A DNA stretch of 64,000 nucleotides, taken from positions 16,370,001 through 16,434,000 of the forward strand of contig CM119372.1 in assembly GCA_051294905.1 (NCBI GenBank). The letters are read 5' to 3'. The notes beneath the pieces are model-generated. The model was not told the DNA's origin and did not search any database. It worked only from the letters and a program-made list of their open reading frames with translations. Of the stretch, positions 18,586 to 64,000 are shown in pieces. The translations under genes and the position numbers were made by a program. The stretch is from Botryllus schlosseri. Its lineage: Eukaryota. Position 1 is the first letter of the stretch. The number at the start of each line of letters is the position of its first letter.

Positions 18586-18990
18586 CGCCCTACTACTATT
18601 GCATTTCCATGTACAAATAGAGTGCTGTGCTCTTGAAACTACAATTTGATCACTTTACAGTCTCAAAACCAAAATCAAACAGCTATGAACGAATTCTCCT
18701 TGTAGCAAACTTTCATTTAAGATCCTATTTGCTTAAATATTTTAATATGTTTGTTAGCAATCCGCCGTCTAAATCGTATAACACCTGACTAATTTTAGAC
18801 CATTGACCAAATTTCCCCTTTCCCAAAATTTCCCCTTTGACCCTAATCTACATGGCATAAATTTCACTTCGAAATATAGACGATCAGCCAGACTATAGAT
18901 AGCTAAGCGTAGGTTAGTTATCTATAATCAGCCAAGCTTCAAATAAATCCAAGTGCCGTATCTCAACTGTCGTCCAACATCTAGCTACAC

Positions 18991-20547: not shown

Positions 20548-23170
20548 CAGGGCTCTGGAACAGCCGTAAATTTTAACTGCTCCAGCTCCGGCTCCGGAGC
20601 TTTCTTCTATCATACATTAGCTCCGGCTCCAGCTCCGGATCCGCATTGGTACCACTGATCCAGCTCCAGCTCCGGCTCCGGCTCTGAAAACTATCGAATG
20701 GGTCTGTCTATATCAGGGGTGACCAACCCGTGGTCCGCAGGCCAAATGTGGCCGCGAGAGGGTTTTGAGGGGCCCGCAAGGTAATTTCCTGTTATATTTT
20801 TACCGACATCCTGTTCTATTATCGAAAATGAATTGCTCAGTTTGTGAACTTGCAAGGAAAACCAAAAATTACAAGTCTGGCTGCGACACTTGGGATGTTG
20901 ATGACTAAAATATCAGTTCCGACGCATTGGCAGATCCAGGGTCCAGTCACATGTTTAGTAAATCATCGTACATCACAATAAACTAAAATAGTAGTGAAAT
21001 TTTTCTTCACGCTTCGCGTGTTTAATTATCACACGATTTCTTGCTTGGTAGCCTACCCCCTCCTGAAAATGAAAAAGACGCATAATTTACCCGATTGAGT
21101 TTAACTGATGTATTCACAATTACGGGAGAATGTCTTTTCGCGTTAGCGCTCGCAGAAAGATCGTCGACGATAAATGTAGGCACAAAATGATTGTCGCATA
21201 TTAGCGGAAACCTTCGATATCGATATGTCCAGATGCCGAATAGTCTTGTCCTTGCAAACTGAGCCCAGCTGGCGGTATACAGTAGACCTACAATATACTC
21301 AAGTTCATTTATAAACTTTGAAAATTTTACGTGCTTGGTACTGCTAGTGGACCGCGCACTCGTTGGTCAATTGCATGTGCCCCTTTAGCCGAAAAGGTTG
21401 GTCATCCCTGGTCTATATAGGTTACTAATCTAGGTTAGTTATCAATAGTAGACCTGATCTAGAGTCTGTCAGCCGCAGAGGTGGTCAGTAACGAAGTACT
21501 TCTACTTTTTCGAAGTACTAAAGTAGTTTTCCTCTACTTCTGGTACTTACTCAAGTAGATCTGATGTTCGCTACTTCTACTTCGTAATATTTTGTGATCT
21601 ACTTACTCACTTTTCTCTATTTTCAGTTTGTCAAGTAGAAGTAGTTTAATCCTCCAATCAGGAAGATAGCCTGAGGAATTTCGGGGCTGATTTCAAGGAG
21701 TATCCAACATTTAATTTTCATAAAAGTTGAGTAAAGCCCAGAATTTTCGTCGCTCTTCGCGCTCAGTGGATACGGAGTAACCAGTATGATTTCACGAAAG
21801 TATCGGTGAATATAATTTAGGTAGCGGGTTGGCGTGGTTCCGTTCACACCGCATTGTCGCCCTTCGCCCATATGAAATATTTCATCACAGTATGTATGGC
21901 TCATCATAACGTTTAAAGCTGATGTTTCGCAATCTAGCGTTTACTTATCATACCGTAATCTAGCAGTCCATGGCGTGTCCTAATCTGGAAAAGTGGACTG
22001 TGACTTTTTTTAGTTTTAGAGCTGTTTTAGCATACCACCTTTGAAACTTTCTGGACTAAAGACATGAAATACATTTTCCGCATTTAGAAGTAGTATTTAT
22101 ATTTCACTTTCAATTCCCAGTATCATATACTTTGAGTTCTAATTAATATCAGTTCTTTTGTCTGGATAACATACACGTAGAAGTATAAAAGCAGGTGTGG
22201 AAATGCTTTCAATTTCCGGAAAAAAAGCTACACGGTATAGCATTTTTACGATCCACCATATTTTTTATTCACGTTTACTAATCGCGCAAAGTGTTTACAC
22301 CGTATCCTATACAACTTCTCCGTATTGCTCTTCAACTAAACTACGCGCCTTATAATATGAGGGAGTGTGCCATACCATGATATTTTCTAAAACGTGCTGT
22401 TCGAATGAACAGAGGATTAGTATCGCATTTCCATATCAATACCATCATTTTCATCCCATGATGCGGACGAATAGTTATGCTGTCGAAAATTGAATACCTC
22501 CTGGTATATGCATCAATATGAATCAAGATCGGCACCTTTCGCATAGCTCAAATTGCACTTTTTAATATTCCATGCGAACGAATTACGATCGTTTTCACAA
22601 CTACTTACTTACTTGAGTAGATTTAAAGTCAGTCAATTCTACTTCTACTTGAAGTAGTTTTAGGTAGCTTATGGAAGAAGTATTTCTACTCGTACTTGAG
22701 TAGATTTTCTCGTCGCTACTTCTACTTCTACTTGAGTAGTTTTCTTGACTACTTTGACCACCTCTGGTCAGCCGTCAGTAACATCGGATTCGGATGCAGC
22801 AACGAAGACATAGGTGCCGCCGTGCCGGCTTGTAACGTCATAATGAGTACTTTTCAATTGTCGACAACATCATAGTTGCACTAGAACGCACTTTACTCCA
22901 TGCCATTGCTGTATACAGCATTAAAATCCAGGCCTGCTGTTAAATCATGTGAAATCAGCAGATATGATTGTTTCATATATAATAGCATCTTATGAAATAC
23001 GTCGTAACCGGAGCTACTCCTCAAATAACGGGCTCCAGCTCCGGCTCTGGCTCCGGCTCCGGCTCCGGCTGAATTTTATGTAGAGCTCCGGATCCGGCTC
23101 CAGCTCTGGTGAAAATTCACGGCTCCGGGGCTCCGGCTCCTTGCTCCGGCTCCGGCGTCAAAAAGCCCTG
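20548..23170 (+). mobile_element. (CTCCGG)n-rich hAT-type MITE carrying two nested MITEs
   Basis: Ends cagggct/agccctg, TSD atcaaaac; nested 20714-21410 (TSD gtctatat) and 21476-22766. Confidence 0.9.
21476..22766 (+). mobile_element. AAGTAG-rich MITE, copy 2
   Basis: Highly similar to 1023-2309; TSD gtcagccg. Confidence 0.92.
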
Positions 23171-27679: not shown

Positions 27680-30200
27680 CAGTGGCGGCTCGTCCTATAG
27701 GGCAACTGGGGCATTGCCCCACCTAAAATTCTGTTCAATAACAATTCTTTACCATTTATAGACGCACACCAATCTAAATATACCGAAATCACAGCGAAAA
27801 TCGTATTCTTCTTGTCCTTTCTCTTGTAAATGCCCATATATAGCGAAGTCTCTGCGAAAATCGAATTCTCTTCTGTGTTTTCGCTTTGCGAATGCCTAGC
27901 CTGGGCATGCCCCGGTAGCGCTCATAACAAGCTTTCACTATAGAAATTAAACATGGAACGGCAACGACCGATTTTGCAGCTTCGTTCCGCTTCGCCGAGG
28001 CTGGAGTGGAGAGTGGTTTTGCGTAAGCGACTGTAGGATTTCTGGCAATCCAAAAGCTATCTTCCCGAGCACAGAAATTATTGAATATGGTCTTGATCGA
28101 AAGCCACTGCTGCATCTATTCCGAAAATATAAAGCAAAATAATGATCAGGCACTGATCCACCTAGAATCCGTCCTCCAAGTCGAAATATCGACATTGTTC
28201 GAACAATCGGAGAGTCGCAACGGGTCATTGTGTTGCGGTCACCCGATTGTTCTGAACAATGCCAATATTTCAGACTTGGAGGACAGATCCTAGGTGGATC
28301 AGTGCCTGATCATTATTTAAATTTATATTTTCGGAATCAGTGCAACAGTAGCTTTCGATCAAGACCAGATTCAATAATTTCTGCGCTCGGGAAGATAGCT
28401 TTTGGATCGCCAGAAATCCTACAGTCGCTTATGCAAAACAATTCTCCACTCCAGCCCCTGCGAAGCGGAACGAAGCTGCAAAATCGGTCGTTGCCGTTCC
28501 ATGTTTAATTTCTATACTTTCACCGTCTATTCTCTCAAAGCTGCGCACAATAAAGAAACGGTGATTTACTCTCTCCTATTCATAAAATTACCGAGCAACC
28601 GGGGCACAATAGCTCTGTGCCCCTAAGGTGTGATGTAACAATCGTATCTATAGCTGAACTCGGTTACCGTCATATTCGTTTAGTCGACCTTTGCTGGTAT
28701 AGGTCGATTTTGATGGTGTTTCACACCATGAAAACTCTTGAAACTTGGTATGTCATGTCGTGATGGTGGTATTTAACACTGCCCCAAGTTTCAGGGTTTC
28801 TACTTAAGGTTTAGAGTAGTAATTCCGTTTCCGAAGTTGAGTGTGTGCTGATCCGTCATGTATCGCAAACATATTTTACTCAAAAGCCGGTATCGGTATT
28901 CATTGATTTTGACTATCTTCAATACTGAGATTGGTTATGACATTTGGCAAGGTAAGTCTTAATGTTAGTATCGAACGCTGTACCAAGTTTTAAGTTTGTC
29001 ACTTAACTGTGTTAGTGGTAATTTCGTTTCCTAATTCGAATGAGAGCTGACTCGTCATTTATCGCTAACAGATTATACGCAAAGGCGGTATTGGTCTCTA
29101 TTGATTTTAACGATGCTCTCCTTAACTAGATCCGTCATAAGCTTTTGCACGGTATGTCTTGATTTTAGTATCGAACGTTGTGCCAACTCTCAAGGTTGAC
29201 ACTCAATGATTAGGGCAGTAATTTCGTTATCAAGGTCGAGTATGGTAGAGATGTGCTCCGATCTGACACTTTAACCTACAACGCATTGCGGATTTCACGC
29301 AAAAGCAGTGTACCTGCGGTAACGTTAACTGAGATGATGATATCATTCTCAGTTTGCATTCAAATATTTACTTTGATATTATATTCTCCAATGTCAATTT
29401 CACCGTGAAATTGTGGCCTTCAAGCCATCTGCTTGCAACCCCCTGTCAAGCGCGATAGCTATTTCGTTTTCGATGGCGGCTAACAGCTGATCACTTGATC
29501 AGCCTATTCCTCAGTAAATTTTACGCAAAATTCGGTGTTAGTCTGTTCGCAATAATTTTGACAGTGTACCATACCGAAAAGGGCCATGAGACCACTTCTC
29601 GATGATGTCATATAACAGTGTACTAAGTTTAACTCTTTGATCCACGTATTTATTCGGTAATATATTTTCCAAAGGCGATTTCGCAGCAGACCTATAGACA
29701 GTAATAAAGCCGTATGTGTCGTGTTACAGTCTCCAGTTTCAAGGCCAAAATCTCCTGTGCTGTACCGAGACCGAATTTCCGAGGCTGCTATTCTTAGTTC
29801 TTCAGAATGATGTTTTGGATTCAATATGACAGTCCCAATCTATGAGATAACAATTGCGTATCTGTCCGAACTCGTTTACTTTTCCAATTTGGCTAACGCT
29901 ATCTCTCGAGTTATAGTCATTTCCATTTCTGCAGATAATTAGTCGGGTCTAGTGCGAACATGAACCGTGTTGAATCTTTGTTCCGTACGCCGTTTACGTA
30001 GTTACCACACTTCAAGTCACAGCTCACCGGCGGACCTCTCGTGGCACATACGTTAAAATCACTGTTGCCGGAAAATTCATGTTACCGTGCCATCATTAAG
30101 TTACTTGTTTACATTGGAAAACGCCATTGTGACGTCATCTCGATAAAAAGTCGCTTGCAGCCCTTGCCCCACCACCCGATATTGTCACGAGCCGCCACTG
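27680..30200. mobile_element. Nested non-autonomous DNA transposon
   Basis: TIR cagtggcggctcgt, TSD actatagc; three degenerate ~185-bp internal repeats at ~28700-29240. Confidence 0.88.
27939..28516. mobile_element. Fold-back (almost fully palindromic) MITE
   Basis: Arms of ~270-280 bp start tatagaaattaaacatggaacgg; flanked by repeated ctttcac. Confidence 0.85.
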
Positions 30201-34961: not shown

Positions 34962-37489
34962 CAGTGGTTCCCAACCTTTTTCGACTCATCGCCCCGTTTT
35001 GAGCTCCACACCGATCATCGCCCACCAAATATTGGGAACCGCAAAACAGCAGTTCGTCACCCCCTAAAACGTTGGTCTTTGGCCCCATAGGGTGATAAAC
35101 CACCTCAGACCCCCTATCAGCCAGTGGGATTTTTTTCGCTACATATCAGCTATACCCTATTTCATGTACTGTTTGGTGAGTCACCGTATTTCGCCTAAAC
35201 GCGCGAAGTGCCACAAATTTATACAATTCACGTTTGAATCGGTCAATATGGTCGGGAATTGCATATAAATTGCTATGCATTTTTTCATCCTCTTTCTGCT
35301 CACGTAATCAGATTTACCGGTAGAGCTGAGCGTAGTGTGTTGGAAAAGGTAGGACACACCTAAATAATAATTAAACATCTTCGGACGTATACCCGTTGGC
35401 AGGAACGAAACAGCACTTCGTCAGGCCACTCCAATGAACTTTGGTCTTGGGCTCCCATAGGGTGATAAACCGACCCCCATCACGTTGTTTGCTTTTGCCA
35501 CGAAATTAGGCGGAATCGTTGTTATATTGACTTCGTTACATGATGCTATCTGGCAAATAATTTTTTGGCGTTTGTCCTGTAGGGTTAAGGTCGCCAGGAC
35601 AGGAACATTCGACGCCAGCCATTGAGGCACATATGGACAATTAAACATGTATGTATATATATCGAAGTTTTCGGTCAGCACAAGGGCATTCCTTTTCGGC
35701 CAATGTCTTCTCGCTGCTGATCGTTCTGGTACACTTCTCGAAGTCGCATGTTACATGACCTCTAACTTCATATGTCTTGGTGCGTTGTGGCGCAGTAGTG
35801 GCTGACGCCGAAGTCTCCCATTTCCTTAGATCATGCGTATTTTTGTTGGAGGACGGGTACCCCAAAGTCAAGATATATGAAAATATAAAATCGCGCGCAG
35901 CGAGAAAATTTTTTGAAAAAGTTGCATGAATTTCTAAAAAATTACTCTACAATTTATGTTAATTCACGAAATATTTTTTGGCCCCCTTCGAGTTCGGGCC
36001 CCCCACCGCCAATTGGGGGGTTTGGGGTGCGGTAGTTACGGTCCCGACTCCAATATAGCCGTCTTAACGCGCCATCGCCCGCCTATCGCCCCCTTCGTTG
36101 TTTTCGCCCCCTATCACCCCCTTCGTTATTTTCGCCCCCCTAGACCGCCAAATCGCCTCCTGGGGGGCGATATCACCAGAGGTGGTCAAAGTAGTCAATA
36201 AAGCTACTCAAGTATAAGTAGAAGTAGCCACGAAAAAATCTACTCAAGTACGAGTAGAAGTACTTTTTCAATAGGCCACCTAAAACTACTTGAAGTAGCA
36301 GTAGAATTGACTGACTTTAAATCTACTCAAGTAAGTAAGTAGTTTTGAAAACAGTCTTAATTCGTTCGCACGGACTGTCAAAAGCTGCGAATTGAGCTAT
36401 GCGGAAGACGCAGAGAGCTTGATTCGTATTGATGCATCCCAGGAGGTATCAATTTTCGACTGAAGAAGCATTTTTTCGCATAATGGGATGCAAATTATTG
36501 TATTGATATGAAAATGCGCTACCAACCCTTTGTTTACTAGAAGACCCCGTTTTAGAGAGTATCATGGCATGGCGCCCTACCTCACATTATAAGGCCCCCA
36601 GTTTAGGCGAAGAGCAACACGTAGAAGTTTTATCGGATGCGGTTTCATCACTTATCGATAGTAGTATACGTTAATAACAAATATTGTGGAACGTAAAAGT
36701 GATATTTAGTGTAGCTTTATTTTCGGAAAATAGAAGAATTACTACACTTGCTTCTATGCTTCAACATGTATGTTCTGCAGACAAAAGAACTGCAAGTAAT
36801 TAGAACTCAAAGTATGATACTCGCAATTGAAAGTGAAATACAAACACCAATTCTAAAAAACGAAAACTATACTTCATGTCTTTTGTCCATAAAGATTCAA
36901 AGGTGATCTGGTAAAACAGGTGTAACGTTCAAAAAAGCTGGATTTTCCAGATTAGCAAGACACGTAATGGGCTGCTAGATTACGATATGATTGGTAATTG
37001 CTAGATTACAAAACGGTAGTTTCAAACGTTATGGTGGGCCATATTTACAGTGATGAAATATTTGATTCGGGCGACAATGCGGTGTGAGTGGAACCAAGCA
37101 ATCCGGTACCTAAATTATATTCACTGATACTTTCCTGAAAACATATTTGTCACTCCAGAACTACTGTGCGCTAAGCGCAACAAAATTTCTGGGCATTACA
37201 CTACTTGACTTTTATGAATATTAAATGTTGGTACTCCGTGAAAACAGCCCCGAAATTCCTCAGGCTATCTTTCGTATTGGGGGATTAAACTACTTCTACT
37301 TGACTAACTGAAAATAGCGAAAAGTAAGTAAGTAGATCACAAAATATTACGAAGTAGAAGTAGAAGTGAGAAAATCAGATCTACTTGAGTAAGTACCAGA
37401 AGTAGAGGAAAACTACTTGAGTACTTTCAAAAAGTAGAAGTACTTCGTTACTGACCACCTCTGGATATCACCTACGTTGGGAACCACTG
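34962..37489. mobile_element. GGGGCGA-family MITE expanded by inserts, including AAGTAG-rich MITE copy 3 (36177-37463, minus)
   Basis: TIR cagtggttcccaac, TSD atgtagca, empty site at ~154; inner TSD gatatcac. Confidence 0.9.
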
Positions 37490-42208: not shown

Positions 42209-45200
42209 AAGAACGTGATTTCCGGTAAGTTTTCGCAATGGCCCTGTAGCCACCGATATCAACATGAAACGCCTCGTGACTTGGTGCATATATTTTCAAG
42301 TTTTTTGATCTTCGCGGTCCTAGTAGTCGTAGGCAATTGGAGTTAGATTTTATGAAGATATATGGCCAAAAAGCACTGTATGATATCGATGTATACCATA
42401 ATAGTATTGTTGTACACTATAGGACGCCAGTAATCGTGTAATTGTTGGCTGCATCAGCAGTTGTTTCATAATTATTATTGCTACCTTTATCTCATTTTTT
42501 CAGCAATTTATCTGGTTCAATTAGAACCGAGATCAACTCCAGATTCGATTCCTACGTGTGAGAGATTTATGTAGACTTCTTATCGCCACCCAATCAAACA
42601 AGACACTGAAAACGACCCTGAAAAACGTGGGCTGTGCTGTAAGTCGGCATCTCAGGATTGGTGAATAATAATATCGGTCTGGTATAAAATGACCCTAGAT
42701 ATCAAAACCAGCCTGTCTCTAAAGAGACTGGTAATCTGTTTATTGCCACTATGCATGAATTAAGCATTTTCAGTAGTCACTAATCATGTGCACAGATGTC
42801 TCTTGTAACTGTGTGTTGACGTGGACAATGTTGCCGAATGGCAAATAGTTGTGGTCAGAATGACTTCGATTGTCGCTTGTCATTAACTAGCATTCAATAT
42901 GACACTATAGCAGGGACGGCCAACCCATGGCCCGCGGGCCAAATGTGGCCCGCGAGAAGGTTTTAGGTGGCGATGTAATTCTCGAAATTAGTTATAATGT
43001 CAGAAAAATCAATTACCCAGGTAATTAAGTATTTGTGAACTTGCAAGGCCAACCGAAAATTTGATTAGCCTGACTGGGAACTTTGAGATATTGATGACTA
43101 AAGTCTCAGTTCAGACGCATTGGCGTAGCCAGTACTTATCCACATTTTCGTAGATCTTCGTATATGACCACAAAGTATAATATTTCGTGGCAGATTTCTT
43201 TGACTTGATATTTTTCTTCGCACTTCCCGCGATTTATTGTCACTCGATTTCTTGATTATAGTCAGGGTTGCCATCGACATGGACCCAAAAATATGGACAG
43301 TCGAAAAATTAGATTTGCATTAAAAAAGCGTTTTCGTACATACTTTGTATTTATACGTGCCGTGACATATCACATCCCATACTTTTTGCCAGAAACAATC
43401 TGCTCCAGCAACTCCTTGTTATTAGAAAGTGCTTCATGGATCTCACGACAGCTAAGGTCTAGGTCAGTGGTTCCCAACGTGGGCGATATCGTCCCCTAGG
43501 GGGCGATTTGGCGGTTCAGGGGGGCGAAAATGACGAAGGGGGCGACAGGGGGGCGAAAATAGCGAAGGGGGCGATAGGGGGCGATGACGCATCAAAACGG
43601 CTGACCTTTTTTTTTTTTTTCTTAGTCAACCCACGGAAATTTAGTTACAAAAGTGTGTAAAATTTGACATCGAGACGAAAATTTGACCTTTTTTTTTAGT
43701 CAACCCGCCGGGGATTACGGTTTGTATGCATAACTAGCTTGTAGAGCAGTGGAAAAGAGTCGTTTCCGGTAAAGATCTTCATCCACTTGGTCTCCGGCTC
43801 AACCTTGCGGAACACATCATTTGGAATCTTCTTCAGCAGAGTGTTAACAGCCGAGACTTCATCAAACAACTCATCTTTCATTGCCATTGGAAAATCAATT
43901 TGCTTTGCCAACCCCTTCATTTCCTCGTACTCGATTGCTTGTTCTTTCAGCAGGATCCAGTTGATGTGCGTTGGATGCTTCTCAAATCGATGCCACTTGG
44001 TGATGTATTCCAAGGTAATGGTGTAGAACTCCTGGAAGCTCGCTTTGAGAACCTTAGCATGCTCTTCATCGACACTTTTTAGTAGTTCGCCTGTTGTTGC
44101 CCCGAAAAACCCTGAACACTGGCGTTGCAATATTTTGATCTTGAAAGATTCAATTATCTCTGCCAGTTCTGGAAATAATGCATTTGACTTTTGCAGTAAT
44201 AACAGTGGTTTATTAAAGAGCAAGAGAGCGCTGTGGAGGAATGATACGATGATCAGCGACTCTTCTTTTTTAGAGAAATCCTCCAATATTCTTGCTGAAT
44301 GTTTCAGCGAAAGAAAGTGCGCTTTGAGTGGTTCCCAGAGATCAATCCTTCGCTCGAGTAGGCTACAGCATCAAGTGTGGTCCAGCGAGTCGGCGTGTGA
44401 GTTGGTAGAGTCGAATATTTGATATCAAGTTCTTCACAGAAATGCTTGAGCCTCAGCGCCCTACCAGTTTGGCTTTTGAAGTGGCTACCAATCTTTAATA
44501 CGTTTGTTTCTATGTCAATTGTGAGGCGCCCTGATCCCTTCTCTGCTGCGTTATGCAACATATGAGCAGGGCAGCCGACTGGGATCAGATGCAATGTTTG
44601 CTCTTTGAGGCGAGAGAAGACGTTGTTTTTTCCACTATGCTGTGATCCTCCAAAATTCACTAGTGCATTATCGGCAGAAAAGAATGACAGCTGCTTCATG
44701 TCTAAGCCATTCATTCTCTTGAATAGAGGAGAGAATAAAGTTTGTGATCTGTGCCGAGGTCTCGCCTGGCATCGGTCGCAGGTCAAGAAGACGTACTCGC
44801 ACTCCAACTTTGGCGTTAAAGAATCTGATGACTAGAGGAAAAAGCTTCACCTCGTTATGATTAGAGGCGTCAACCGAGATGGAAAAAGGCTGTTCACCAA
44901 GTTCAGACAAAATCATTCTTTGAGCGTATGGGGCAAGAACTCCAATAACAATGCTTATAGTCTTGGTCCTGGCCGAAGCAAACTTCTTTGCGATGTTGGA
45001 ATCGGGGAATATTGCTTGAAACAATTGCGATGTGCAATCGTCGGTGAGGAATGATTGCTGGTGTTCGACAGTATGGAACGCCCAGGTACCCTCAGCAGCA
45101 GCTGCCTTGTAGTCTGTGGTCGTTGGTGCTGATCGACTTGTAAAAAAATTATTCATTGACTGGCTCGAATTAATCATTATTACACACTTCTTGTGTTTTT

Positions 45201-46159
45201 TGGTGTCGATGTGAGCCGAAATAGCGGTCTTTCCTATGGCCTCCAGGTTAATGTCACAATTGCAGATATTGCAATGTGCAAAACACTCGCCCTTCAAGCC
45301 AGGGCTTTGGAGCCGGAGCCCGGAGCCGGAGCCCCGGAGCCGTGCATTTTTACCGGAGCTGGAGCCGGAGCCGGAGCCGGAGCCACTTATTTGAGGGGTA
45401 GCTCCGGCTCCGACGTATTTCATAAGATGCTATTATATATGCAACAACCATATCTGCTGAATTCACATAATTCAACAGCAGGCCTTCGCGAAATTAAGAG
45501 TCTTTTCCTCTTTGGCGCTACGTTTTCCGACCAACCATATTCCTGGGTATTTAACAGCAGAACAGTCATATATTCAATGTTAAATTTTCGTACATGAGTG
45601 CCAAGGTATGCGAAATATGCCTGTGAATATGTGGGTATTCGGCATACCCGCAATTTCATCATCAGCATTACCTTGTTGGCCAATTGTACTGTTCGAAAAT
45701 AAGGATCACTATGTATTACGCGAAATGGGAGACAGGATAAAAACGTGATTTCGTTGCACATGTCGATATGACGAGCACGAGCCGAGAAATTCCATCTCAT
45801 CGTTGCTATGAATCGAATGAGCAAATACTCGTTCTTTCGTGATAGTTCTTTAATCGGGCCGTGAAATTGGACAGTGTTATTGAGTATGCAATCAGACATG
45901 CTAATTGGAATTCATTACTGCGCATGATCGTTAATTCACTCCAGTAAGGATTTTTCGAGCGTAAAAAGGGGATGGCAAAAGAGTAGCCCAAAACGCCGTT
46001 TCACTCAGCAAACAATTATCGCGGTGCGAGCTACTCAATGCGATGCAGGACCCCATGGTATTTTATGTTGGAGTCAAATTACTGATTTGATACGCGATTT
46101 CCAATTTGTAATCATCTGTTTCGTAAATTCATTCTTGATGTCTGCTTGATACTCTAGTA

Positions 46160-48133: not shown

Positions 48134-51100
48134 CTCTAGTATTACCGGATTATCGCGCACTGTGACTTATTGTAAATGTGCAATGTACATACTGCATAGT
48201 TTAATTCGTTATGGGCATGGCGCAACGTGCATGGCACGATGTTCAATTCGATTATTCGATTCGTTTCAACGGGAAAATATTTATTCCGATAAACTTGATC
48301 GACACCGGATGGACTGGTAACGAGTGTACAAATATCGAAGGTCAAACCATTGGCCATTTGGCACAACTCGAATTTCTATTGAAAGCGTCGTGATATCCGC
48401 CCATATTGCTCTTACTACAGTTACAGTTATATAATAATCGCAAATTTAAAGATTGAATTGAGCTGTATGGATTATGTTAACGAGTACAGTGTCAGTGTTG
48501 AAACGCCGCATCAAAATTATAATGCTGTACACAGCAATGGCACGGAGTAAAGTGCGTTCTAGTGCAACTATAATGTTATCGACAATTGACAAGCATTCAC
48601 TATGACAGCACAAGCCGGCACGGTAGCACCTATGTCTTCGTTGCTGCATCCGATGTTACTGAAGGCTGACATACTCTAGATTACTATAGATAACCAACCT
48701 ACGGATAAATTAGTAATCTATATAGACGAGGGGTGGCCAATCTTTTCGGCTAAAGGGCCACATGAAATTGACGAACGATTGCGCTGCCCACTATGGCCGC
48801 ACCAAGCGCGTAAAATTTTCAAATTTAATATTATTATTACTTGGGTATATTGCGGGTCCACTGTATACCGCCCGATGGGCTCAGTTTGCAAGGACAGGAC
48901 TATTCGGCATCTGGACATATCGATATCGAAGATTTCCGCTAATATACGACAATCATTTTGTGCCTACATTTCATCGTCGACGATCTTTCTGCGAGCGCAA
49001 ACGCGAAAATACTTTCTCTCGCGATTGTGAATATAGTTAGACTCAATCAGCTAAATCAGGCGTTTTTTCATTTTCAAGTAGGGGTAGGCGACAAAGCAAG
49101 AAATCGTGGGACAATTAGACACGCGAAACGTGAATAAAAATTTTACTGCTTTTTTAGTAATGTAATGTACGACGATTTACTAAAAATGTGACTGGACCGT
49201 GGATCTGCCAATGCGTCGGAACTGATATTTTAGTCATCAACATCCCAAGTGTCGCGGCCAGACTAATCATATTTTTGGTTGGCATTGCAAGTTCACAATC
49301 TGAGCAATTCAATTTCGATAATACAACAGAATTTCGATAATATAATGGGAAATTACATCGCGGGCTACTCAAAACCTTCTCGCGGGCCACATATGGCCCG
49401 CTGGCCGCGGGTTGCCCACCCCTGATATAGACAGACACCTTCGATAGTTTTCATAGCCGGAGCTGGAGCCGGAGCAGAGGTAATAATGCTGCTCCGGAGC
49501 TGGAACCGGAGCTAATGTATGATAGAAGAAAGCTCCGGAGCCGGAGCTGGAGCAATGCAAATTTACGGCTGCTCCAAAGCCCTGCTTCAAGCTTCGTTTG
49601 ACAAATTTGAATTCTCTCTCATAATCGTCACGAAAAACGTTTTCACGCTTGCTCATTCTAAATAATAAGATTTAGTCTTATTAGTAGCTAAAACTATGTG
49701 CGCAATATAATTTAGATAAATTTATCAATGATTTATAGCTTTACTACTACTTTTTTACCCAAGTGTCAACTGCACTGCGCCCTTTTTCACTACGCAATAA
49801 ATGCTGCCTTCCCCACAGCTTATTCTGCTTCTGACTAATACAGCAGAACCCTGGTACTGCTGTTTACTGCTAAAATGACGACCCCTTCGATAGCTTGGTA
49901 CAGCCGAAAATGCTATACGGTACTGCTTGCTGTTTACTGTTAAAATTACGTCTATACTGCGATAGCTTGGTACAGTCGAAATTGCTATACGATACTGTTG
50001 TTTACTGCTAAAATGACGTTCGCTGTGATAGTTTGGCACAGCCGAAACTGCTCTACTACTAACTGCCCTAGCATCTCGCCAAATCCCATCAAATCCTGTG
50101 CGGTGTGTACGCCACGGGAGCTCCTTTCATTTATGATGTCATGAAATCTTCGACGCAAAAGCATAATTTTAGAGTATTATGCAACACAGATACCAGAGAA
50201 AAAACGATCGAAGCTCTGTAGTTGTTGAAAATAAGACAAAATAAGGACGCAAGTCGAAAATAAGGACAGTTGAGTTTTCTAAGACGTGGCCCTTCAAAAT
50301 AAGGACAAGTCTTAGAAATAAGGACGGTATGGCAACCCTGCTTATAGTATTGGTGCCCCTCTGGAAAATTAAAAATAACAACTTACGGAATTAAATCTAA
50401 CTATATTCGCTATTATGAGAGAACGTGTCGTCCAACATGCGACTTCGCGTCTGCACTCGCAGGAAGATCGTCGGCGATGAAACCTTAATTGCGATAGACA
50501 CGCATGTTCACTAAAATCTTCGATATAGATATGTCCAAGCGCCGATTAATCATGTTCTGTCCAAATGAGCCCAGCGGTATACAGAGGCAACCAACAATAT
50601 TTGCAACTAATTGACCGAATTCATTCATTAACTTTGAAAAAAAATTCGCTCTTCGCGCGGCTAGGACAGAGTTTCCATGTCATAACTGTTATCGATTTTG
50701 ATGCGTAATAATATAAATACTATTTTTACCGTTACCTAATCCGGTTCGCTACTATCGCACGACTGAAAAAGGACATCAACATTCAAGTGCCCCGTGCAAT
50801 GGCTCATAAATCTCATGTGGCCCGTTGGCCGAAAAGGTTGGCCACCCCTGTAGCTAGCTGAAAAACAAAATTAGGTTGCTAAAGTCGAAGGAAGCCGCCG
50901 GTCACGATACAGTCGAATCGAAATCTGGCCAGAAAATATTGGAATCGCTGTACAAGCCTCTACCAGAAGATTTAGGTTATAATATCAATGAGTTGCCGAT
51001 GTTAATCCGACCGCAGATTTGATTGTAACTGTGAATCGTAGTAATCTTTTGGAGTTGGCGCGATACGGTTTTCAGAGTACTGGATGCCATCAAGTGGTTC

Positions 51101-54116: not shown

Positions 54117-57100
54117 GGTCAATGTTTCAAATTGTTACGACATACGTTCCAAAGGCCCTAATTCGTAAAACAACTCACTCGGGGCCTACGATATCGTAGG
54201 CCCCGAGTCACTCAATGTTCATGATTGCTATATGAATATGTCACCATCACCTATAAAGGATTAACAGGCATGTCTAAAAAATAGAAGGCCGAAATCTAAA
54301 ATTCAAAGAGCATTAAAAATTTGTTGACTGGAGCCCTTTCAGATTGTGCCCACCGGGTAGTCGTGTTCAAGGAGCATGATTAAGTCGGTGTTATGACAGA
54401 AACACGGTACGGTACGGTACAGACACTCGGTCAAGGAAGGGCGAATCTCAAAAGAAGTGCAAGCTTCGCTCAACAACCGGCTATTTCACCAAGCTGCACA
54501 TTGCTCGGAAGGCAGAGATCAAGACAATAAGCTTTGTAGTATCCCGAATACATTTAAAGCCTTAATAGAAAAAAAAAACATGGATTGGGGTTTACAGAGA
54601 GTTCAAATGTATCATGTTTAACATTGTTTCTAATTAAGACGGCTAATAAAAATTAGTTTCTGATAATAAACTGTCACTTCTCATATCAACGCAGCCACTG
54701 AGCAGCATTTATCACCAATGTAATTCGCTGCTTTCAATTTAGAAATAAAATTAATACGCTGCAGAATATATACTTCAAATTATGATTCGGCCCGCCAACG
54801 TATTTTCCGCTCCTCATTTGGCCCGCGGAGATAAATAATTGCCCACTCCTGATCTATATGATCTTGAACTTCAGTCTGATATATTCAAATCGAGAACAAC
54901 TTTAATACGGAGCTGCATGCGGCCAAGGTTTCATTGGACCATCGGATACGCAAATATATAATTTTGAAATTTTCAATAGTTCACATTATTATATATAGCA
55001 AAAATATTATTTACTTTTCGATCGCAAATTCCTGCTAACTCAGTATTCCCATAGTTTCGGATACGTCTATTCTGCAGTGAAATGTATGCATGAATGGTGG
55101 CATATCGCCGATTCACTAGAAAGCTAGGATTTGCCTTTAGTAACTCATTTTTTGTTGTTGTTTGCTTTCGGTTATTGTGCTCGTCAGACACATAACCGGT
55201 ATTCAAAAGTAATAAAATAAGTACTAGAGTAGGTAATTATTTATCAATCACGGTATTGCCAATGACGGGGATTGGGAATTTCCGTTTCTGTTCACAGTAT
55301 ATCTCCAAGACTTTGGGATTTGAGAGAAAATAATAATAAATAGTAAAAAAATTAGTGCGATCGCCACTATGCAATAAAACGCACGCCTAGTTTCGAAATT
55401 ATAGTTTACAAATTGCACTAGAAAGCTTAGATGTTGATAATAATGAAGGTATGGCGGAATGCTTCTGTCCTGAACTATCAGTTTGATTGTGGTGACAGAG
55501 ATATATCGAAATTCCGCAACTCTGTAGTTTAAATCTGTAATATACCGAATGCATGTCTTTCTTTTACGGAGATATGTGACATTCATGTTTATCGCTACGG
55601 AATTGGGTGGATGCTTTAGAAGCAAGTGCATGCCTATCGATATAATGGCAACATCGGCAACTATGTCGGTTATTGAAATGTCGTTGGTATGTCACCACAT
55701 TATTGCAGAAACGCTGGCATACAGTGGTATAGTAACGCTTCAAATGTTATTGCATTTATTAGATACAACTGTCGGCCGATATTGCTACTAAAAATTTTCG
55801 TCTGGATCGTCATCAACAAGGCAGCGTTATAAGTTTTCAAATATCAAGCTATAGTCAAGACACGTCGCGTAACGCTGTGATTATTAAATCATATAACCTT
55901 AATAGTAGCACTGGGAGTAGTAGGGTTTGATCAAATATACGCCCGCCAATCCCAGAAGGCCACGTCGCCTTAATTGCCACGCCTACATTGCCACATCATC
56001 CGCCCATTGCCGCGCCTATGGGACGCCTATTGCCACATCATCCATCCATTGCTATATCATCGCTGCATTGATTTCCGCATCTTGATACTTTTCTCAGATA
56101 TTGTATTATGTGTATTTAGGACTAATATCATCCGTCCATATTTTTTAAACTTGATTTTATGTGTACAAGTTACGGTTTCTGCAGTTTCCACATTTTACGA
56201 CTTATGATTGCTGCGTCAAAACTTACCTTGGCTAGAATCGACAGATTTTCTATTATGTGTATTTAGGACTATGTATTTAAATTCCTATTCAGATTATACA
56301 TAAATGCGAAAACTATGATGTCTATGTAAGGTTATATTCTCCGGATAATATTATTAATATCAAAATTCTACACATCATCACTAATTACTTAATATAAAAT
56401 GTGATTTTGAGCGCTGCGACTTGATAATATGAACCCCTACGCTTCTGATGCATGATTTTTTGTGATAAGGACCTAGGTAACATTCAGAGTCTGCAACGAT
56501 TGTTTGGATATACATTATAGCAATACCCCGCTAAACTATAGGCGGTTATATTACTCTATTGCTCAGAGATAACTCATCCGTCCATATTTTTAAACTTGAT
56601 TTTATGTATACAAGTTACTGTCTCTGCAGCCTCCACATTTTACGACTTATTTTCATTAGACGCAGGCAAGCGATTCTCCAGTTCGGAGCTACGGAAACAA
56701 ATCACTCGCATGTGCGCGTTCCGAATAGTCTTGTAGAATTTTCTAAAGTCGTAACAGCTTAGTAGCATATACGCGAATCCCAAGGTGAAAATAATCGAAT
56801 GAACTATAGCCGTAGGCGTGCGATTCGCAGGGCTTTATTTATACAAACTCTATCGATGCCTGTACACGAACCCCAGCGTTAAAACGATTAGGTCTAATTA
56901 ACACGTTCTGAAGCCGAAAATTTAGTCAACATCATTGAGATAGCCATGATTTGAAGATGGTGATCGAGTGTGACAATAGCACTCGCCAAGGTTAGACAAA
57001 CATAACCTTAAACTACTCTCTACTTCACAAAATATAAAGTTATAAAAGTAAGCAGATTTTGTCGATATTGCTTTGTGATGATTTTGATGTTGTTCCATAC

Positions 57101-58632
57101 CGATTGGGAAGATAGGACTCCTAATTCCTTAACTAACTACATAATCCCTAGTAACGTAGTCAGACGCATAACGGAATTTACGCAAATCGATATTGCTCTG
57201 CGATAATTTTGACCACTATGTTTTGATAATAACTTGCTTCCGAGAGATAGATAACATTCATTATACGTTAGATGATACTTTTCCTTTATATTCTATTATG
57301 TGTATTTAGGGCTAATGCGACATCACTATGTTTGCGACAGGCCTGATTTGAACACGCTAATTTTGCAAATTAAACTTATCACCCAACACGAACACTCAAT
57401 GAAGAGCACCCCGGAGCACCCACATAAATGCTCCACAATTTGTGACGTATTATATACTGAGCATATAATAAGCTGACAAAACTGATACTTGAGTACTCCG
57501 AAATGTACAAGTACTTTACCTTTACACGACGTTTTTGTAAAATGAATACTAATGGTACGCGAATGATCATAGACTAAGCTTGCTTTCAGAGTTGGAAACT
57601 AAATGCATATGAAAATTTAACTATGTTTTCCCCTCACGCATCAGATGTAGGCCTACTCAAGTGTTTATGAGGCGACGAATAGTTCGAAGGTTGTTGGGAT
57701 GCAAGGACGTCACATAGAATTGTGGAGTTTTCTGTAAACTATATTCCAGTGATCTATTTTCAATCACTATACTTTTATTAATCTAAACTAAGTACTGTTA
57801 GTAGGCAAATCCTAGAAAAGTATCCTCTGATAAAAGCAGGAGTAATTCGTTATCTCTGAAATAAATAGATAGCGCGCAATATGAGCGGTGTTACGATGAC
57901 TGACAAATACTTTGAATTAATGCATAGAAGTAGCGATTTCGAACTACGTAAAAAGTTAGTCGAGCTCACGCATTTTCCATTAAGTTTCGAAGATGCGTTT
58001 TATAATTGCTCTAGGTGTGAAATAGACATCGCACTCTTGCGGGGAAACAACATGAATTCAGTTTTCACACCGCAGAAACACAGCCGCTTGGTTAACATCA
58101 CAAAACCGCAATTGAACTCAAGATTGCCATACACGGAATCGCTGTTAACCATGTCTGACTGCGGCGTTTCGACGAGTAACGAATTCTCGTATTTAGTAAT
58201 GATTGTGACACATAGTCAAAACAGCGACAGTTTTCACAACCCGGTACATACATTGAACCAACTGATGTAAGGTGAAACACTACGTTCGCAGCAAAAAAAA
58301 GTTTGCAGGGTATGACCACCACCAACATATAGAGTAGTGAGTGAGTAATTAAACTACATACCCCGATTTTACTATATTCCGAGATCCGGATCACGATTCA
58401 AGTCTACCTGAGAATCCGAACTACCCTGTGAAGTTGATATATCAAGTTGTGAACCGTGAAAGGGTTGTAATCTCGGTGAAATAGTGTGCGACACATTTTT
58501 CCACAAGTCGAATGCATGTCGGTTCATACTAAGACCATTAGGAATTTGCACAATGACAGGTTATTGAAACCGATGCCAAAACTCAGTATAATAGATTGAT
58601 ATTGACCGCGTGTATGTTTGACATATATGCAG

Positions 58633-58740
58633 CATCTTGGATCGGCGGTGGAGCACTGAATGGCACTGCAGAAGTCATCTACTCTCCTAAGCTTGGACTG
58701 ATCTGGGCTATTGCGCCACTGTGTTACGGGTTTAGTGTTC
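58633..58740 (+). pseudogene. Orphan exon fragment of a high-affinity choline transporter (SLC5A7/CHT1-like) gene
   Basis: tgcag acceptor followed by (A)SWIGGGALNGTAEVIYSPKLGLIWAIAPLCYGFSV, matching the recalled CHT1 segment ATWVGGGYINGTAEAVY..GLAWAQAPIGYSLSL. Truncated by a local repeat (also present at ~57508). Confidence 0.75.
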
Positions 58741-59149
58741 AAGTACTTTATCTTTACACGACGTTTTTTGTAAAATGAATACTAATTTTATTGAAAAAAT
58801 AAAAAATAAAAAAGAGCGAAAAATTACATTATATCCCGGAACGCAACAAGAAAAATCGTATGAATTTGTAAACTACTTGTTCATGACATAATAATAATTC
58901 TACTTGTATACTTTTTCACATTTTATAACACTTTAAGTAATACTTAACAGTTTCAGTTTTAAATAAAATACGGAATATAAACTAATCGAAAAATTCGGTA
59001 ACCAATTTCGCGTAGGCTATGCATGCATACAAATGAGGAAAGTTACATCAACGCGTGTTAAAGTAGCTGTATCGAGTTATCGAATGATTTTCTCCTTACA
59101 TCAAAACAACTAGAATGTATAACTAAATTAAAAAACGTATCTAAATGAG

Positions 59150-60300
59150 CTCCAGGGCATTGTGATTATGCTGCATACCAAATTTCATCACACATTTCAT
59201 GATGGAACAACTTTAAAACTAACGCAGTTCTATAGCAACTTTTGCCTAAATCTGTTTTCGGTAGCGTGTACATATACATAGTCAGATTTAATAACAGAAT
59301 TATCATGCTAATATGTGACTCCTCACCTTGAAACTAGGTACGTAGTTGTAGGACATTGTGATTATGCAGCATACCAAATTTCCTCACGCATTTCATAATG
59401 GAACAACTTTAAAACTAACGCGGTTCTACATCGACTTTTTGCGTACATCTGTTTTGCGTGGGGGGCGTATAGCACGTACCTATACATAGTCAACTTTAAC
59501 AACGGAATTACCATGCTTAACATTGATACCCAACTCGAAACTTGATACGTAGTTGTAGGACATTATGGTAATGCAACATGCTAAATTTCATCACACATCT
59601 AATGATGGAACACCTTTAAAACTAACGCAGTCGAATACCGACTTTTACGCATATCTGTTTTGCGTGAACATAGCAGATACCTATACATAGTCAATTTTAA
59701 TAGCAGAATTACCGTGTTAAACATTGAATTCCCACCTTGAAAGTTGGTACGCGGTTAAAGGAGATTATAACAATGCACCATACCAAATCCCATCACACAT
59801 TTCATGATGTAACACCTTTAAAACCAACGCAGTTCTATACAGACTTTTGGCTAAATCTGTTTTTCCGTAGCGTAGCACGTACCTATACATAGTCAACTTT
59901 AATAACGGATTTAGCATGTTAATAATCGACTCCCCACCTTGAAACTCGGTACGCAGTTGTAAGACATTATGACAATGAACCATGTCAAATTTTGTTACGC
60001 ATTTCATGATTGAACAACTTTAAAACTAACGCAGTTCCATACCGACTTTTGCGAGTGCGTAGCACGTACCTATATGCATACTCAACTTTCATAACGGAAT
60101 TACCGAGCTAAACATTGAATGCGCAACTTGAAGATTGGTTCACAGGTGTAGGGCAGTATGACAATGGAACACATCAAATTTCATCACACATTTCATGATG
60201 GAACACCTTTAAAACTAACGCAGTTCTATACCAACTTCGCGTGAATCTGTTTGCGGGAGCGTAGCACGTACCTATGCGTGATCAACTTTAGTGATGGAAT
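59150..60300. repeat. ~200-bp tandem satellite (about 6 units), mirrored at 63085-64000
   Basis: aatttcatcacacatttcatgatggaaca(a/c)ctttaaaactaacgcagtt recurs at ~59181, 59377, 59584, 59786, 59988, 60177. Confidence 0.9.
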
Positions 60301-63300
60301 TACATATGTAATTAAGTTTCAACACTTTTACAATGATTCGTCTTGCTTCCTATAACACCCCACTCGAGAAAATGCGTCGTAGGATATAGATGAAACTAGC
60401 ACCACTCATCAAGACCGCTGAAAACAGTACATTTCAACATTTAGTAGCAGTACATTTCTAGTAAAGTACGAGACGTGATGATTTCCGAGTGAGTTAAAAA
60501 GTAAGTATTGCAGGTATAGTTTACCTGAAAACCGAATACTCTGAAATAGAAGTAGATGCAGTGTAAATAGTTAATCACTTGATTAAGTTTAGTGCAAGCA
60601 GATAAAACCTATACTTGAGTAGTACAAAATGCACGAGTACTTCGCTATCGCCTCCCTCCACGTAATAAGTGTCTACGGTTTAAGACTGCTTTTACCGATA
60701 CTTGTCGGTTTCAGTTTTAGATAGAATTCGGAAACCAAATAATTTCATAAACATAAGCTAATTTAATGAATTTACTCGAATGTACTATGCCGCGCTGATA
60801 AGATTAATTATAATATACTTATCATGTTACAGCGATTTTTCTAGCGTAGAAATCTTTAAAATGTAGTAAGCAGACCAAATGAAGATATTCGTTGAGCTGA
60901 ATAAACATAAAAAATACTCTAGACTACTTTATCGGTACTTTACAGTTACAGTTTTAGATAAAATTTGTCCCTTTCACCTATAATTACAACTCCTCGCTAT
61001 CTAAACATGTTTAGAATATATTATTTGCGATGATACGAACCCGTGAAGTACTCAAGTTGCTTTTCGTAGGATATAGATGAAACTGACAACACTCACCAAG
61101 ACCAGTGATCCACTGAAAAAAGTACATTGTAGCAGTAAAGTCCTACTAAAGTACAAGAAGTAATGATTTCCCAGTTAGTTAAAAAGTAAGTATTGAGGTA
61201 TAGTTTGCTCGAAAAAGCGAAAAACTCTGACATAGAAGTAGATGCAGTGTAAATAGGTAATCACTTCATTAAGTATAGCGCAAGCAGGCCAAACCTATAC
61301 TTAAGTACTGCAAATGTACAAGTACTTCGCTATGTTCTCCCTCCACGTAAAAAGTGACTAGGTTTTAGAGTACTTTATCGGTACTCGACAGTTTCAGCGT
61401 TAGGTAAAATTTGGTAAGACTTTAAATTTTAAAGTAGTTTGAGCTTACGTTTGTATCACCCTGACAAGTAACATTATCAGACATGAAAATGATACTATCA
61501 CCGAATATAGAAGTTAACACGCGTCAATGTGCTTCGGAATTCACGAGAAATTGCTTACTAAGAGAAGTATATTGTTGTATACACAATAGTGGAGAGAATA
61601 TTTAAAATGTAGTAAGCAGGCCGATGGGTATTCGTTTAGTTGTATAGACATAAAAAACATTCCCGCGCGCTCTTAAACAAAACACTTCCTAACCCTACCA
61701 CCTAATACTAAGACGCGCGCGGGAATGTTTTTATGTCTATACAACTAAACGAATACCCATCGACCTGCTTACTACATTTTAAATATTCTCTCCACTATTG
61801 TGTATACAACAATATACTTCTCTTAGTAAGCAATTTCTCGTGAATTCCGAAGCACATTGACGCGTGTTAACTTCTATATTCGGTGATAGTATCATTTTCA
61901 TGTCTGATAATGTTACTTGTCAGGGTGATACAAACGTAAGCTCAAACTACTTTAAAATTTAAAGTCTTACCAAATTTTACCTAACGCTGAAACTGTCGAG
62001 TACCGATAAAGTACTCTAAAACCTAGTCACTTTTTACGTGGAGGGAGAACATAGCGAAGTACTTGTACATTTGCAGTACTTAAGTATAGGTTTGGCCTGC
62101 TTGCGCTATACTTAATGAAGTGATTACCTATTTACACTGCATCTACTTCTATTTCAGAGTTTTTCGCTTTTTCGAGCAAACTATACCTCAATACTTACTT
62201 TTTAACTAACTGGGAAATCATTACTTCTTGTACTTTAGTAGGACTTTACTGCTACAATGTACTTTTTTCAGTGGATCACTGGTCTTGGTGAGTGTTGTCA
62301 GTTTCATCTATATCCTACGAAAAGCAACTTGAGTACTTCACGGGTTCGTATCATCGCAAATAATATATTCTAAACATGTTTAGATAGCGAGGAGTTGTAA
62401 TTATAGGTGAAAGGGACAAATTTTATCTAAAACTGTAACTGTAAAGTACCGATAAAGTAGTCTAGAGTATCTTTATGTTTATTCAGCTCAACGAATATCT
62501 TCATTTGGTCTGCTTACTACATTTTAAAGATTTCTACGCTAGAAAAATCACTGTAACATGATAAGTATATTATAATTAATCTTATCAGCGCGGCATAGTA
62601 CATTCGAGTAAATTCATTAAATTAGCTTATGTTTATGAAATTATTTGGTTTCCGAATTCTATCTAAAACTGAAACCGACGAGTATCGGTAAAAGCAGTCT
62701 TAAACCGTAGACACTTATTACGTGGAGGGAGGCGATAGCGAAGTACTCGTGCATTTTGTACTACTCAAGTATAGGTTTTATCTGCTTGCACTAAACTTAA
62801 TCAAGTGATTAACTATTTACACTGCATCTACTTCTATTTCAGAGTATTCGGTTTTCAGGTAAACTATACCTGCAATACTTACTTTTTAACTCACTCGGAA
62901 ATCATCACGTCTTGTACTTTACTAGAAATTTACTGCTACTAAATGTTGAAATGTACTGTTTTCAGCGGTCTTGATGAGTGGTGCTAGTTTCATCTATATC
63001 CTACGACGCATTTTCTCGAGTGGGGTGTTATAGGAAGCAAGACGAATCATTGTAAAAGTGTTGAAACTTAATTACATATGTAATTCCATCACTAAAGTTG
63101 ATCACGCATAGGTACGTGCTACGCTCCCGCAAACAGATTCACGCGAAGTTGGTATAGAACTGCGTTAGTTTTAAAGGTGTTCCATCATGAAATGTGTGAT
63201 GAAATTTGATGTGTTCCATTGTCATACTGCCCTACACCTGTGAACCAATCTTCAAGTTGCGCATTCAATGTTTAGCTCGGTAATTCCGTTATGAAAGTTG

Positions 63301-64000
63301 AGTATGCATATAGGTACGTGCTACGCACTCGCAAAAGTCGGTATGGAACTGCGTTAGTTTTAAAGTTGTTCAATCATGAAATGCGTAACAAAATTTGACA
63401 TGGTGCATTGTCATAATGTCTTACAACTGCGTACCGAGTTTCAAGGTGGGGAGTCGATTATTAACATGCTAAATCCGTTATTAAAGTTGACTATGTATTG
63501 GTACGTGCTACGCTACGGAAAAACAGATTTAGCCAAAAGTCTGTATAGAACTGCGTTGGTTTTAAAGGTGTTACATCATGAAATGTCTGACGAAATTTGG
63601 TTTGGTGCATTGTTATTATGTCCTACAACCGCGTATCAACGTTCAAGGTGAGAATTTAATGTTTAGCATGCTAATTCTGTTATTAAAATTGACTATGTAT
63701 GGGTATATGCTATGTTCACGAAAAACAGATATGCGTAAAAGTTGGTATTCGACTGCGATAGTTTCAAAGGTGTTCCATCATTAGATGTGTGATGAAATTT
63801 AGCATGGTGAATTGCCATAATGTCCTATAACTACGTATCAAGTTTCGAGTTGGGATTCAATGTTAAGCATGGTAATTCCGTTATTAAAGTTGGTTATGTA
63901 TGGGTAGGCTACGTGCTATACGCTCCCACAAAACAGATGTACGCAAAAAGTCGATGTAGAGCCGCGTTAGTTATAAAGTTGTTCCATCATGAAATGTGTG
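59384..64000. repeat. Large inverted repeat (palindrome), arms >=2.3 kb, 33-nt spacer 61676-61708
   Basis: 61709-64000 is the reverse complement of ~59384-61675. Each arm also holds a diverged ~690-bp direct repeat (starts ~60377 and ~61065). Confidence 0.96.

What the first reader, a model, noticed from the sequence alone, without database searches (positions are those of the whole stretch)
59384..64000. Multi-kb palindrome with a sharp two-tier arm identity
Seen: the inner ~1.9 kb (59797-61675 versus 61709-63586) differs at only about a dozen positions by eye, while the outer satellite part diverges abruptly (roughly 85%). A simple fold-back read artefact should give uniform identity. Inference: arm-to-arm gene conversion or hairpin-primed re-copying of an older inverted structure. 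Outer tandem repeats with an inner unique domain also resemble Foldback-type transposons.
Basis: partly seen in the sequence, partly recalled or inferred. Interest (0 to 1): 0.7.

Follow-up and report, generated by a model that had tools for sequence, protein, structure and literature searches.

The report
Part-recopied giant hairpin transposon, Maverick-type end
The mirror-image stretch is the middle of a roughly 11.5-kb hairpin-shaped, gene-less mobile element in an animal genome, whose inner 1.9 kb was made identical much more recently than the rest, most likely by ordinary DNA repair copying one arm onto the other.

Summary
The step is real. Inner arms 59797-61675/61709-63586 differ by 9 substitutions and 3 one-base indels in 1880 columns (99.4%); outer 59385-59796/63587-64000 by 39 substitutions and 2 indels in 417 (88.7%; reader said about 85%). 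The boundary lies inside the 202-bp satellite, not at its edge. So this is probably the centre of a ~11.5-kb gene-less palindrome whose right end lies beyond the window. The scan has noted such Maverick-ended giant palindromes, some loop-deleted, many times elsewhere in this genome (unchecked notes), but by-sequence look-ups gave no match to them. Both arms carry derived bases (15 left, 23 right), against one-strand read noise. Best reading (0.5): break near the apex, then arm-to-arm re-copying of 1.9 kb in place. Rival (0.28): recombination with another family copy. No read-level test or second copy was obtained, and only 412 bp of outer tier is visible.

The parts
55691..55915 (+). Host dispersed repeat that is cut off by the insertion; last 6 bp (55910-55915) are the predicted target-site duplication
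   Evidence: 85% match over 225 bp to 10766-10990 ends exactly at 55915; the paralogue runs on into unrelated sequence. The duplication itself cannot be seen: its partner is outside the window.
55916..55923 (+). Left terminus, AGTAGTAG, the 5'-(AGT)2 end motif of Mavericks/Polintons
   Evidence: Sequence; chance of the 8-mer at a given site 1.9e-5; motif as described in PMC8097293
55916..59153 (+). Outer part of the left arm (inferred): GC-richer subterminal ~19-bp repeats (55986-56061), then AT-rich modular non-coding DNA; mirror partner lies beyond the window
   Evidence: the arm 55916-61708 has one 45-nt hit to 1-55915, while 44% of 1-55915 is self-repeated; longest stop-to-stop frame 133 aa, without homologues
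59154..60303 (+). Left satellite array, ~202-bp period, 5.7 copies, monomers about 72-82% alike
59385..59796 (+). Visible outer tier, left side (88.7% to its mirror, in register)
   Evidence: (mirror monomers 93% and 89% against 69-82% for non-mirror pairs)
59797..61675 (+). Inner tier, left arm (99.4% to its mirror): 2.5 satellite monomers plus two diverged ~690-bp units
61676..61708 (.). 33-nt unpaired loop without G on the + strand, closed by a short GC-rich stem; homology between the two ~690-bp units ends about 20 bp before it
   Evidence: no second copy in the window
61709..63586 (-). Inner tier, right arm
63587..64000 (-). Visible outer tier, right side; arm runs off the window (predicted end near position 67,470)
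   Evidence: mirror of 55916 about the centre = 67468; inference

Best explanation
A gene-less mobile element about 11.5 kb long, built as one palindrome with a Maverick/Polinton-type end, inserted into a host repeat at 55915/55916 (shown for the left end; right end and target-site duplication inferred). Its arms started alike (inferred from the replication model for Polintons and from the scan's notes on young copies) and drifted to about 10% difference. Much later a break at or near the apex was repaired inside the element: a resected 3' end folded back or invaded the other arm, copied about 1.9 kb outward and rejoined the old arm in register inside the satellite. That reset the inner tier to identity, after which 12 differences accumulated on both arms. 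The step is therefore the end of one repair tract; the ratio of distances (0.102 vs 0.0048, about 21-fold) would date it to the last twentieth of the copy's life (inferred, assumes in-place drift). The very short loop may come from the same or an earlier centre break. Shown: anatomy, step, left end, two-sided divergence. Inferred: everything about order, direction and enzymes.
For: Single sharp change point. Outer tier in register with its mirror monomers. Derived bases on both arms in the outer tier, 15 left and 23 right of 39 with 1 unresolved (binomial p = 0.26), and one each at the 2 inner satellite sites. Left terminus with the (AGT)2 motif exactly at the break of a host repeat (motif in PMC8097293). 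Precedent: fold-back priming after a break beside inverted repeats (PMC7999016 passages); inverted repeats at 94% and 86% identity still fold back in single-stranded DNA (PMC10164571 passages); centre deletions that stabilise long palindromes (PMC8701086 passages); arm-to-arm conversion tracts with mean minimum length 2068 bp in a human Y palindrome (PMC3723533 passages). The last 61 columns beside the loop hold 3 of the 12 inner differences (P about 0.0035, post hoc), as expected if an old stem served as primer.
Against: Only 412 bp of outer tier is visible and all of it is satellite, so it is unknown whether 10% holds out to the ends or is a local patch. No second copy of the element was obtained, so neither arm can be placed against the family. 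The arm holds none of the window's common repeats, which sits better with a young insertion than with 10% drift in place. The apex excess is weak: the 3 differences are a C/T change before G, an indel in an A run and an indel in a GC run, all mutable contexts. Four by-sequence look-ups found no look-alike among the scan's notes on this genome. In the papers read, fold-back priming ends in hairpin-capped or dicentric products; the return to the old arm is my inference. No spanning reads were examined.
Confidence: 0.5

Rival explanations
1. Chimera by recombination with another copy of the family. The element is young (arms 99.4% alike since insertion) and one outer segment was overwritten by, or crossed over with, a paralogous or allelic copy about 10% diverged; or an old copy had its centre replaced by gap repair from a young copy; or the chimera arose between two replicating copies before insertion. 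The satellite provides the homology at the switch.
For: The switch lies inside a satellite array. Notes describe such elements as very abundant here (about 150 to several hundred copies, unchecked), so donors may be plentiful. The arm is free of nested common repeats and its terminus motif is intact. Two-sided derived bases are predicted by this model too.
Against: No donor was found. The homogenised tier is centred on the apex, the known fragile point of long palindromes with short spacers (PMC7999016, PMC8701086 passages), and the sister arm is the nearest template.
Confidence: 0.28
2. Assembly artefact: a haplotype or paralogue switch at 63586/63587, or collapse and co-polishing of the inner arms, or a fold-back molecule joined to another copy.
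For: Long near-perfect palindromes with a 33-nt loop are hard to sequence and assemble (general knowledge; PMC8701086 passage on nanopore difficulty). No read-level check was obtained, and the loop was not found in JGI metagenome contigs (the organism may simply be absent there, since a conserved arm motif was also absent).
Against: Inner differences are 9 substitutions to 3 indels, 5 transitions and 4 transversions, unlike strand read error; derived bases lie on both arms; the window lies inside a piece with notes 7.2 Mb before and 23.8 Mb beyond it, not at a contig end; an independent terminus sits 5.76 kb from the apex, close to the 6.2-6.8-kb arms noted elsewhere.
Confidence: 0.12
3. A classical Foldback (FB/Tetris, Mutator-type) transposon, or two head-to-head satellite-bearing repeats, with the AGTAGTAG at 55916 belonging to something else.
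For: Long modular arms with tandem repeats and no genes, as in Tetris (PMC4079207 passages). The link between 55916 and the palindrome is inferred, since the mirror of 55916-59384 is outside the window. AGTAGTAG or its complement occurs 6 times in the window against 2.4 expected. Notes list other foldback types in this genome.
Against: The motif starts at the exact base where the host repeat stops; 55916-61708 is one block free of the flank's repeats and lower in GC (36.7% vs 41.3%); a short module is shared between 57470-57516 and both inner units; the satellite is 3.2 kb from that end.
Confidence: 0.1

Closest known systems
Maverick/Polinton elements (Barreat and Katzourakis 2021, PMC8097293, passages read; replication model as summarised in PMC4196379, passages read)
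   Same: 5'-(AGT)2 end motif at a clean insertion boundary; overall size near the 12.7-24.6 kb range if the mirror prediction (11.55 kb) holds.
   Different: No core genes in the visible 8 kb; inverted repeats at least 2.29 kb (5.76 kb predicted) against 46-1447 bp in intact vertebrate elements; the element is almost all palindrome; 3' motif and 6-bp duplication unseen.
Giant gene-less Maverick-ended palindromes noted by this scan in the same genome (e.g. e1-7883813, e1-7786796, e1-7883370, e1-7884682; AI notes, unchecked)
   Same: End type, whole-element palindrome, arm length of about 6 kb, lack of genes; loop- or centre-deleted copies of 12.4 and 9.3 kb are noted.
   Different: Loop 33 nt rather than about 1 kb; predicted arm 5.76 kb rather than 6.2-6.8 kb; a sharp two-tier identity step, which none of the summaries shown mentions; no by-sequence match, so possibly a separate sequence family or a diverged copy.
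Foldback transposons (Drosophila FB, Tetris; PMC4079207, passages read)
   Same: Long modular inverted arms with tandem repeats of about 200 bp, non-coding.
   Different: Tetris has 8-10-bp duplications and a middle domain; here a Maverick-type end, satellite 3.2 kb inside, and a 33-nt loop.
Arm-to-arm gene conversion in palindromes (human Y P6; PMC3723533, passages read) and fold-back priming / centre-break repair (PMC7999016, PMC10164571, PMC8701086, passages read)
   Same: Multi-kilobase homogenisation of palindrome arms; instability and deletion at the centre.
   Different: Here one tract against a 10%-diverged background in a mobile element of an invertebrate-like genome, with a single visible tract end; mechanism not observed.

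Membership tests
Autonomous Maverick/Polinton | 5'-(AGT)2 or (AG)3 end motif | tested here: met
   AGTAGTAG at 55916, exactly where host-repeat homology stops
Autonomous Maverick/Polinton | Matching (ACT)2 3' end and 6-bp target-site duplication | not testable with these tools
   Predicted near 67,470, beyond the window; no whole genome is held
Autonomous Maverick/Polinton | Core genes (protein-primed polymerase, integrase, ATPase, protease, capsids) | tested here: not met
   19 stop-to-stop frames of 60 aa or more in 55900-64000, longest 133 aa; 2 of the 19 were scanned against Pfam without a significant hit, the longest also against two protein collections
Autonomous Maverick/Polinton | Terminal inverted repeats of 46-1447 bp around a coding interior | tested here: not met
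   Inverted arms of at least 2.29 kb around a 33-nt loop against the range in PMC8097293
Scan's Maverick-ended giant palindrome family (same genome) | Maverick-type end on a gene-less whole-element palindrome with ~6-kb arms | tested here: inconclusive
   Left end and 5.76-kb distance to the apex fit; only 2.29 kb of pairing is visible
Scan's Maverick-ended giant palindrome family (same genome) | Central loop of about 1 kb | tested here: not met
   33 nt; loop-deleted copies are noted (unchecked)
Scan's Maverick-ended giant palindrome family (same genome) | Sequence similarity to noted copies | tested here: inconclusive
   0 same-genome look-alikes in 4 of 4 by-sequence look-ups covering about 5.4 of 5.8 kb of the arm; no positive control was run, and the notes give no sequences
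Foldback (FB/Tetris, Mutator-type) | Long modular inverted repeats with tandem repeats, non-coding | tested here: met
Foldback (FB/Tetris, Mutator-type) | 8-10-bp target-site duplication | not testable with these tools
   Right end outside the window
   Step inside the satellite; inner part itself duplicated; satellite 3.2 kb from the end
Fold-back read or library artefact | Uniform identity, errors on one strand and mostly indels | tested here: not met
   Two tiers, substitution-dominated, derived bases on both arms
Fold-back read or library artefact | Absence of independent spanning reads | not tested
   No read or contig pile-up was obtained; all 24 runs listed are kept as contigs, not raw reads

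The most novel reading that the evidence does not exclude
The step is not host repair after insertion but a trace of how these elements replicate: a helper Maverick polymerase copies a snapped-back strand from the apex outward and can switch templates between different copies, so the element was born with an identical core and outer arms from two lineages. These palindromes would then be copy-back-like dependants of a DNA virus-like element, renewed from the centre, and tier boundaries across copies would map the switch points.
Probability: 0.12. Interest if true: 0.7.

Novelty: new variant of a known kind. Interest (0 to 1): 0.33.

Why it matters
If the best reading holds, this copy is a natural snapshot of one multi-kilobase repair tract in a long palindrome with a mappable end, and a warning that arm-to-arm identity cannot be used as an insertion clock for these elements. 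The element type itself (gene-less, whole-element palindrome with Maverick ends) was not found described in four searches of the open library (listings only, subscription papers and Repbase not covered), but this scan has already noted it many times on other DNA of the same genome, so this window adds one feature, the step, not the discovery.

Tried and rejected
No whole genome is held, so other copies and the right end could not be read. A read or contig pile-up was not obtained. Exact-pattern scans were all blank: loop pattern and a motif conserved in both inner units in metagenome contigs, three patterns in viral contigs, one in genome contigs; these collections may not hold the organism. 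By-sequence look-ups of earlier notes: nothing from this genome (one search gave three unrelated E. coli HNH notes sharing 3 of 180 words, dismissed). The 133-aa frame 57869-58270: Pfam best E = 0.11, no homologue, no Atlas hit; treated as non-coding. Rfam on 58900-64000: 0 matches. Rejected: step = satellite/unique border; outer tier = out-of-register monomers; a gradient within the outer tier (9, 9, 6, 17 events in four bins, p = 0.09); a firm third tier at the apex (mutable contexts); the loop as telomere seed or adapter (no G in 33 nt has chance about 0.002-0.003 per site, post hoc; the likeness to telomere repeats is recalled and untested). A Helitron origin of the satellite was a recalled likeness and was not tested. 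No paper supplements were opened.
Full report
Observation. The window is repeat-rich, 41% GC, with few long frames; earlier notes call the genome an animal's (unchecked). Self-BLAST finds one inverted match 59385-64000 at 96.9%. A global alignment of the arms gives an inner tier 59797-61675 / 61709-63586 with 1868 of 1880 columns identical (9 substitutions, 3 one-base indels) and an outer tier 59385-59796 / 63587-64000 with 370 of 417 (39 substitutions, 2 indels; 88.7%, or 90.5% ungapped). The change point is 59796/63587, log-likelihood -206.6 against -252.1 for one rate; 0 of 300 permutations came near (best -245.1); support interval 59796-59817. Jukes-Cantor distances are 0.102 +/- 0.017 and 0.0048 +/- 0.0016. 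The loop is 33 nt (61676-61708); the central 166 nt fold at -68.8 kcal/mol as DNA.

The 202-bp satellite spans 59154-60303. The step falls inside it: 507 bp of satellite belong to the inner tier at 99.6%. The outer monomers are in register: mirror pairs are 93% and 89% alike, non-mirror pairs among the 11 monomers 69-82%. The 'unique' inner domain contains a diverged duplication (60377-60734 vs 61064-61417, 79%) whose homology ends about 20 bp before the loop.

The real left end. Earlier notes on this genome describe many 13-16-kb gene-less palindromes with Maverick/Polinton ends, 6.2-6.8-kb arms and a loop of about 1 kb, with loop- or centre-deleted copies of 12.4 and 9.3 kb (144, 91 and 81 of 308 notes fit the word searches, 8 shown each; unchecked). 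That lead sent me to look for an end. A host repeat at 55691-55915 matches 10766-10990 at 85%, and the match stops at 55915, where AGTAGTAG begins; the paralogue continues into unrelated sequence. The 8-mer has a chance of 1.9e-5 at a given site, although 6 occur in the window against 2.4 expected. PMC8097293 (passages) gives 5'-(AGT)2//(ACT)2-3' with 6-bp duplications as the commonest vertebrate Maverick end. The block 55916-61708 has one 45-nt hit to the rest of the window, whereas 44% of 1-55915 is self-repeated, and is lower in GC (36.7% vs 41.3%). Mirroring 55916 about the apex gives 67468, an element of about 11.55 kb (inference). The right end and the duplication are outside the window and no genome is held. 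No gene: 19 frames of 60 aa or more, longest 133 aa, without Pfam, homologue or Atlas support (2 of 19 scanned in Pfam, 1 of 19 in the others); no Rfam match in 58900-64000. Against filing it in the noted family: four by-sequence look-ups over about 5.4 of 5.8 kb of the arm found no look-alike in this genome (no positive control).

Artefact? Inner differences are mostly substitutions (5 transitions, 4 transversions). Using the other five left monomers as outgroup, the 39 outer substitutions are 15 left-derived, 23 right-derived, 1 unresolved, and the 2 inner satellite substitutions are one each (p = 0.26 for symmetry). Notes lie 7.2 Mb before and 23.8 Mb beyond this window on the same piece, so this is no contig end. 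A noisy fold-back read does not fit. A haplotype or paralogue switch in assembly cannot be excluded: no pile-up of reads or contigs was obtained, and the pattern scans of public contigs were blank.

Mechanism. Best reading (0.5): an older copy whose arms had drifted about 10% suffered a break near the apex and re-copied 1.9 kb from the sister arm, by fold-back priming or strand invasion, rejoining in register within the satellite. Precedents read as passages: fold-back priming after resection (PMC7999016); fold-back of 94% and 86% identical inverted repeats in single-stranded DNA in yeast (PMC10164571); centre deletions stabilising a 15.4-kb mouse palindrome (review PMC8701086); conversion tracts of 2068 bp mean minimum in human Y palindrome P6 (PMC3723533); template switching at short inverted repeats with 40-80-nt spacers (PMC10766186). 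None of these passages shows the exact product proposed; the return to the old arm is inferred. Three of the 12 inner differences lie in the last 61 columns (P about 0.0035, post hoc), which would fit an old stem acting as primer, but all three are in mutable contexts. Main rival (0.28): exchange with another copy of an abundant family gives the same step, and the absence of nested repeats in the arm leans towards a young insertion. Only 412 bp of outer tier, all satellite, can be seen, so the two cannot be separated here. Assembly switch 0.12; classical Foldback or unrelated end 0.10.

Comparison. It works like a non-autonomous, Maverick-dependent fold-back element (end motif met; genes and short terminal repeats not met, so it is not an autonomous Maverick; PMC8097293; racket-like single-stranded intermediate as summarised in PMC4196379). 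Searches for non-autonomous palindromic Mavericks, and for conversion between Maverick arms, gave no paper on the point by their listings; supplied the mechanism papers. The library lacks most subscription papers and Repbase; no supplements were opened.

Verdict. Real feature, correctly measured, but part of a larger element of a type that the scan has noted repeatedly on other DNA of this genome. The new item is one sharp homogenisation boundary, most likely from known repair processes. New variant of a known kind; interest 0.33. The boldest reading not excluded, that the step is a template switch of the element's own hairpin-primed replication, gets 0.12 and would merit 0.7.

Noticed in passing
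window 17755-18597: A complex short-period tandem array (24/41/65/108-bp periods) ends exactly in CTACTACT; read on the minus strand this end shares its first 10 nt with the terminus at 55916. No partner end with a matching 6-bp duplication in the window. Possibly a solo or interrupted end of another Maverick-type element.
   Followed up: partly
window 49858-50060: A 72-bp tandem array (2.9 copies) also ends in CTACTACT; no partner end found.
   Followed up: partly
window 27939-28516: 578-bp fold-back with 244-nt arms 93% complementary and a 90-nt spacer, MITE-like.
   Followed up: no
window 43696-45429, minus strand: Three overlapping stop-to-stop frames (253, 175, 224 aa) with a Cys/His motif near the start, by eye a broken DNA-transposase gene (recalled likeness to hAT/BED-finger proteins); 2 of the 3 scanned, no significant Pfam hit.
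   Followed up: partly
window 61676-61708: The loop has no G on the + strand and its complement has four GG runs; only 0.3% of the window's 33-mers lack G or C. Unexplained.
   Followed up: partly
window 1021-2309, 21476-22768, 36175-37465: Three copies of a ~1.3-kb dispersed repeat at 81-90% identity; 44% of 1-55915 is covered by within-window repeats.
   Followed up: no
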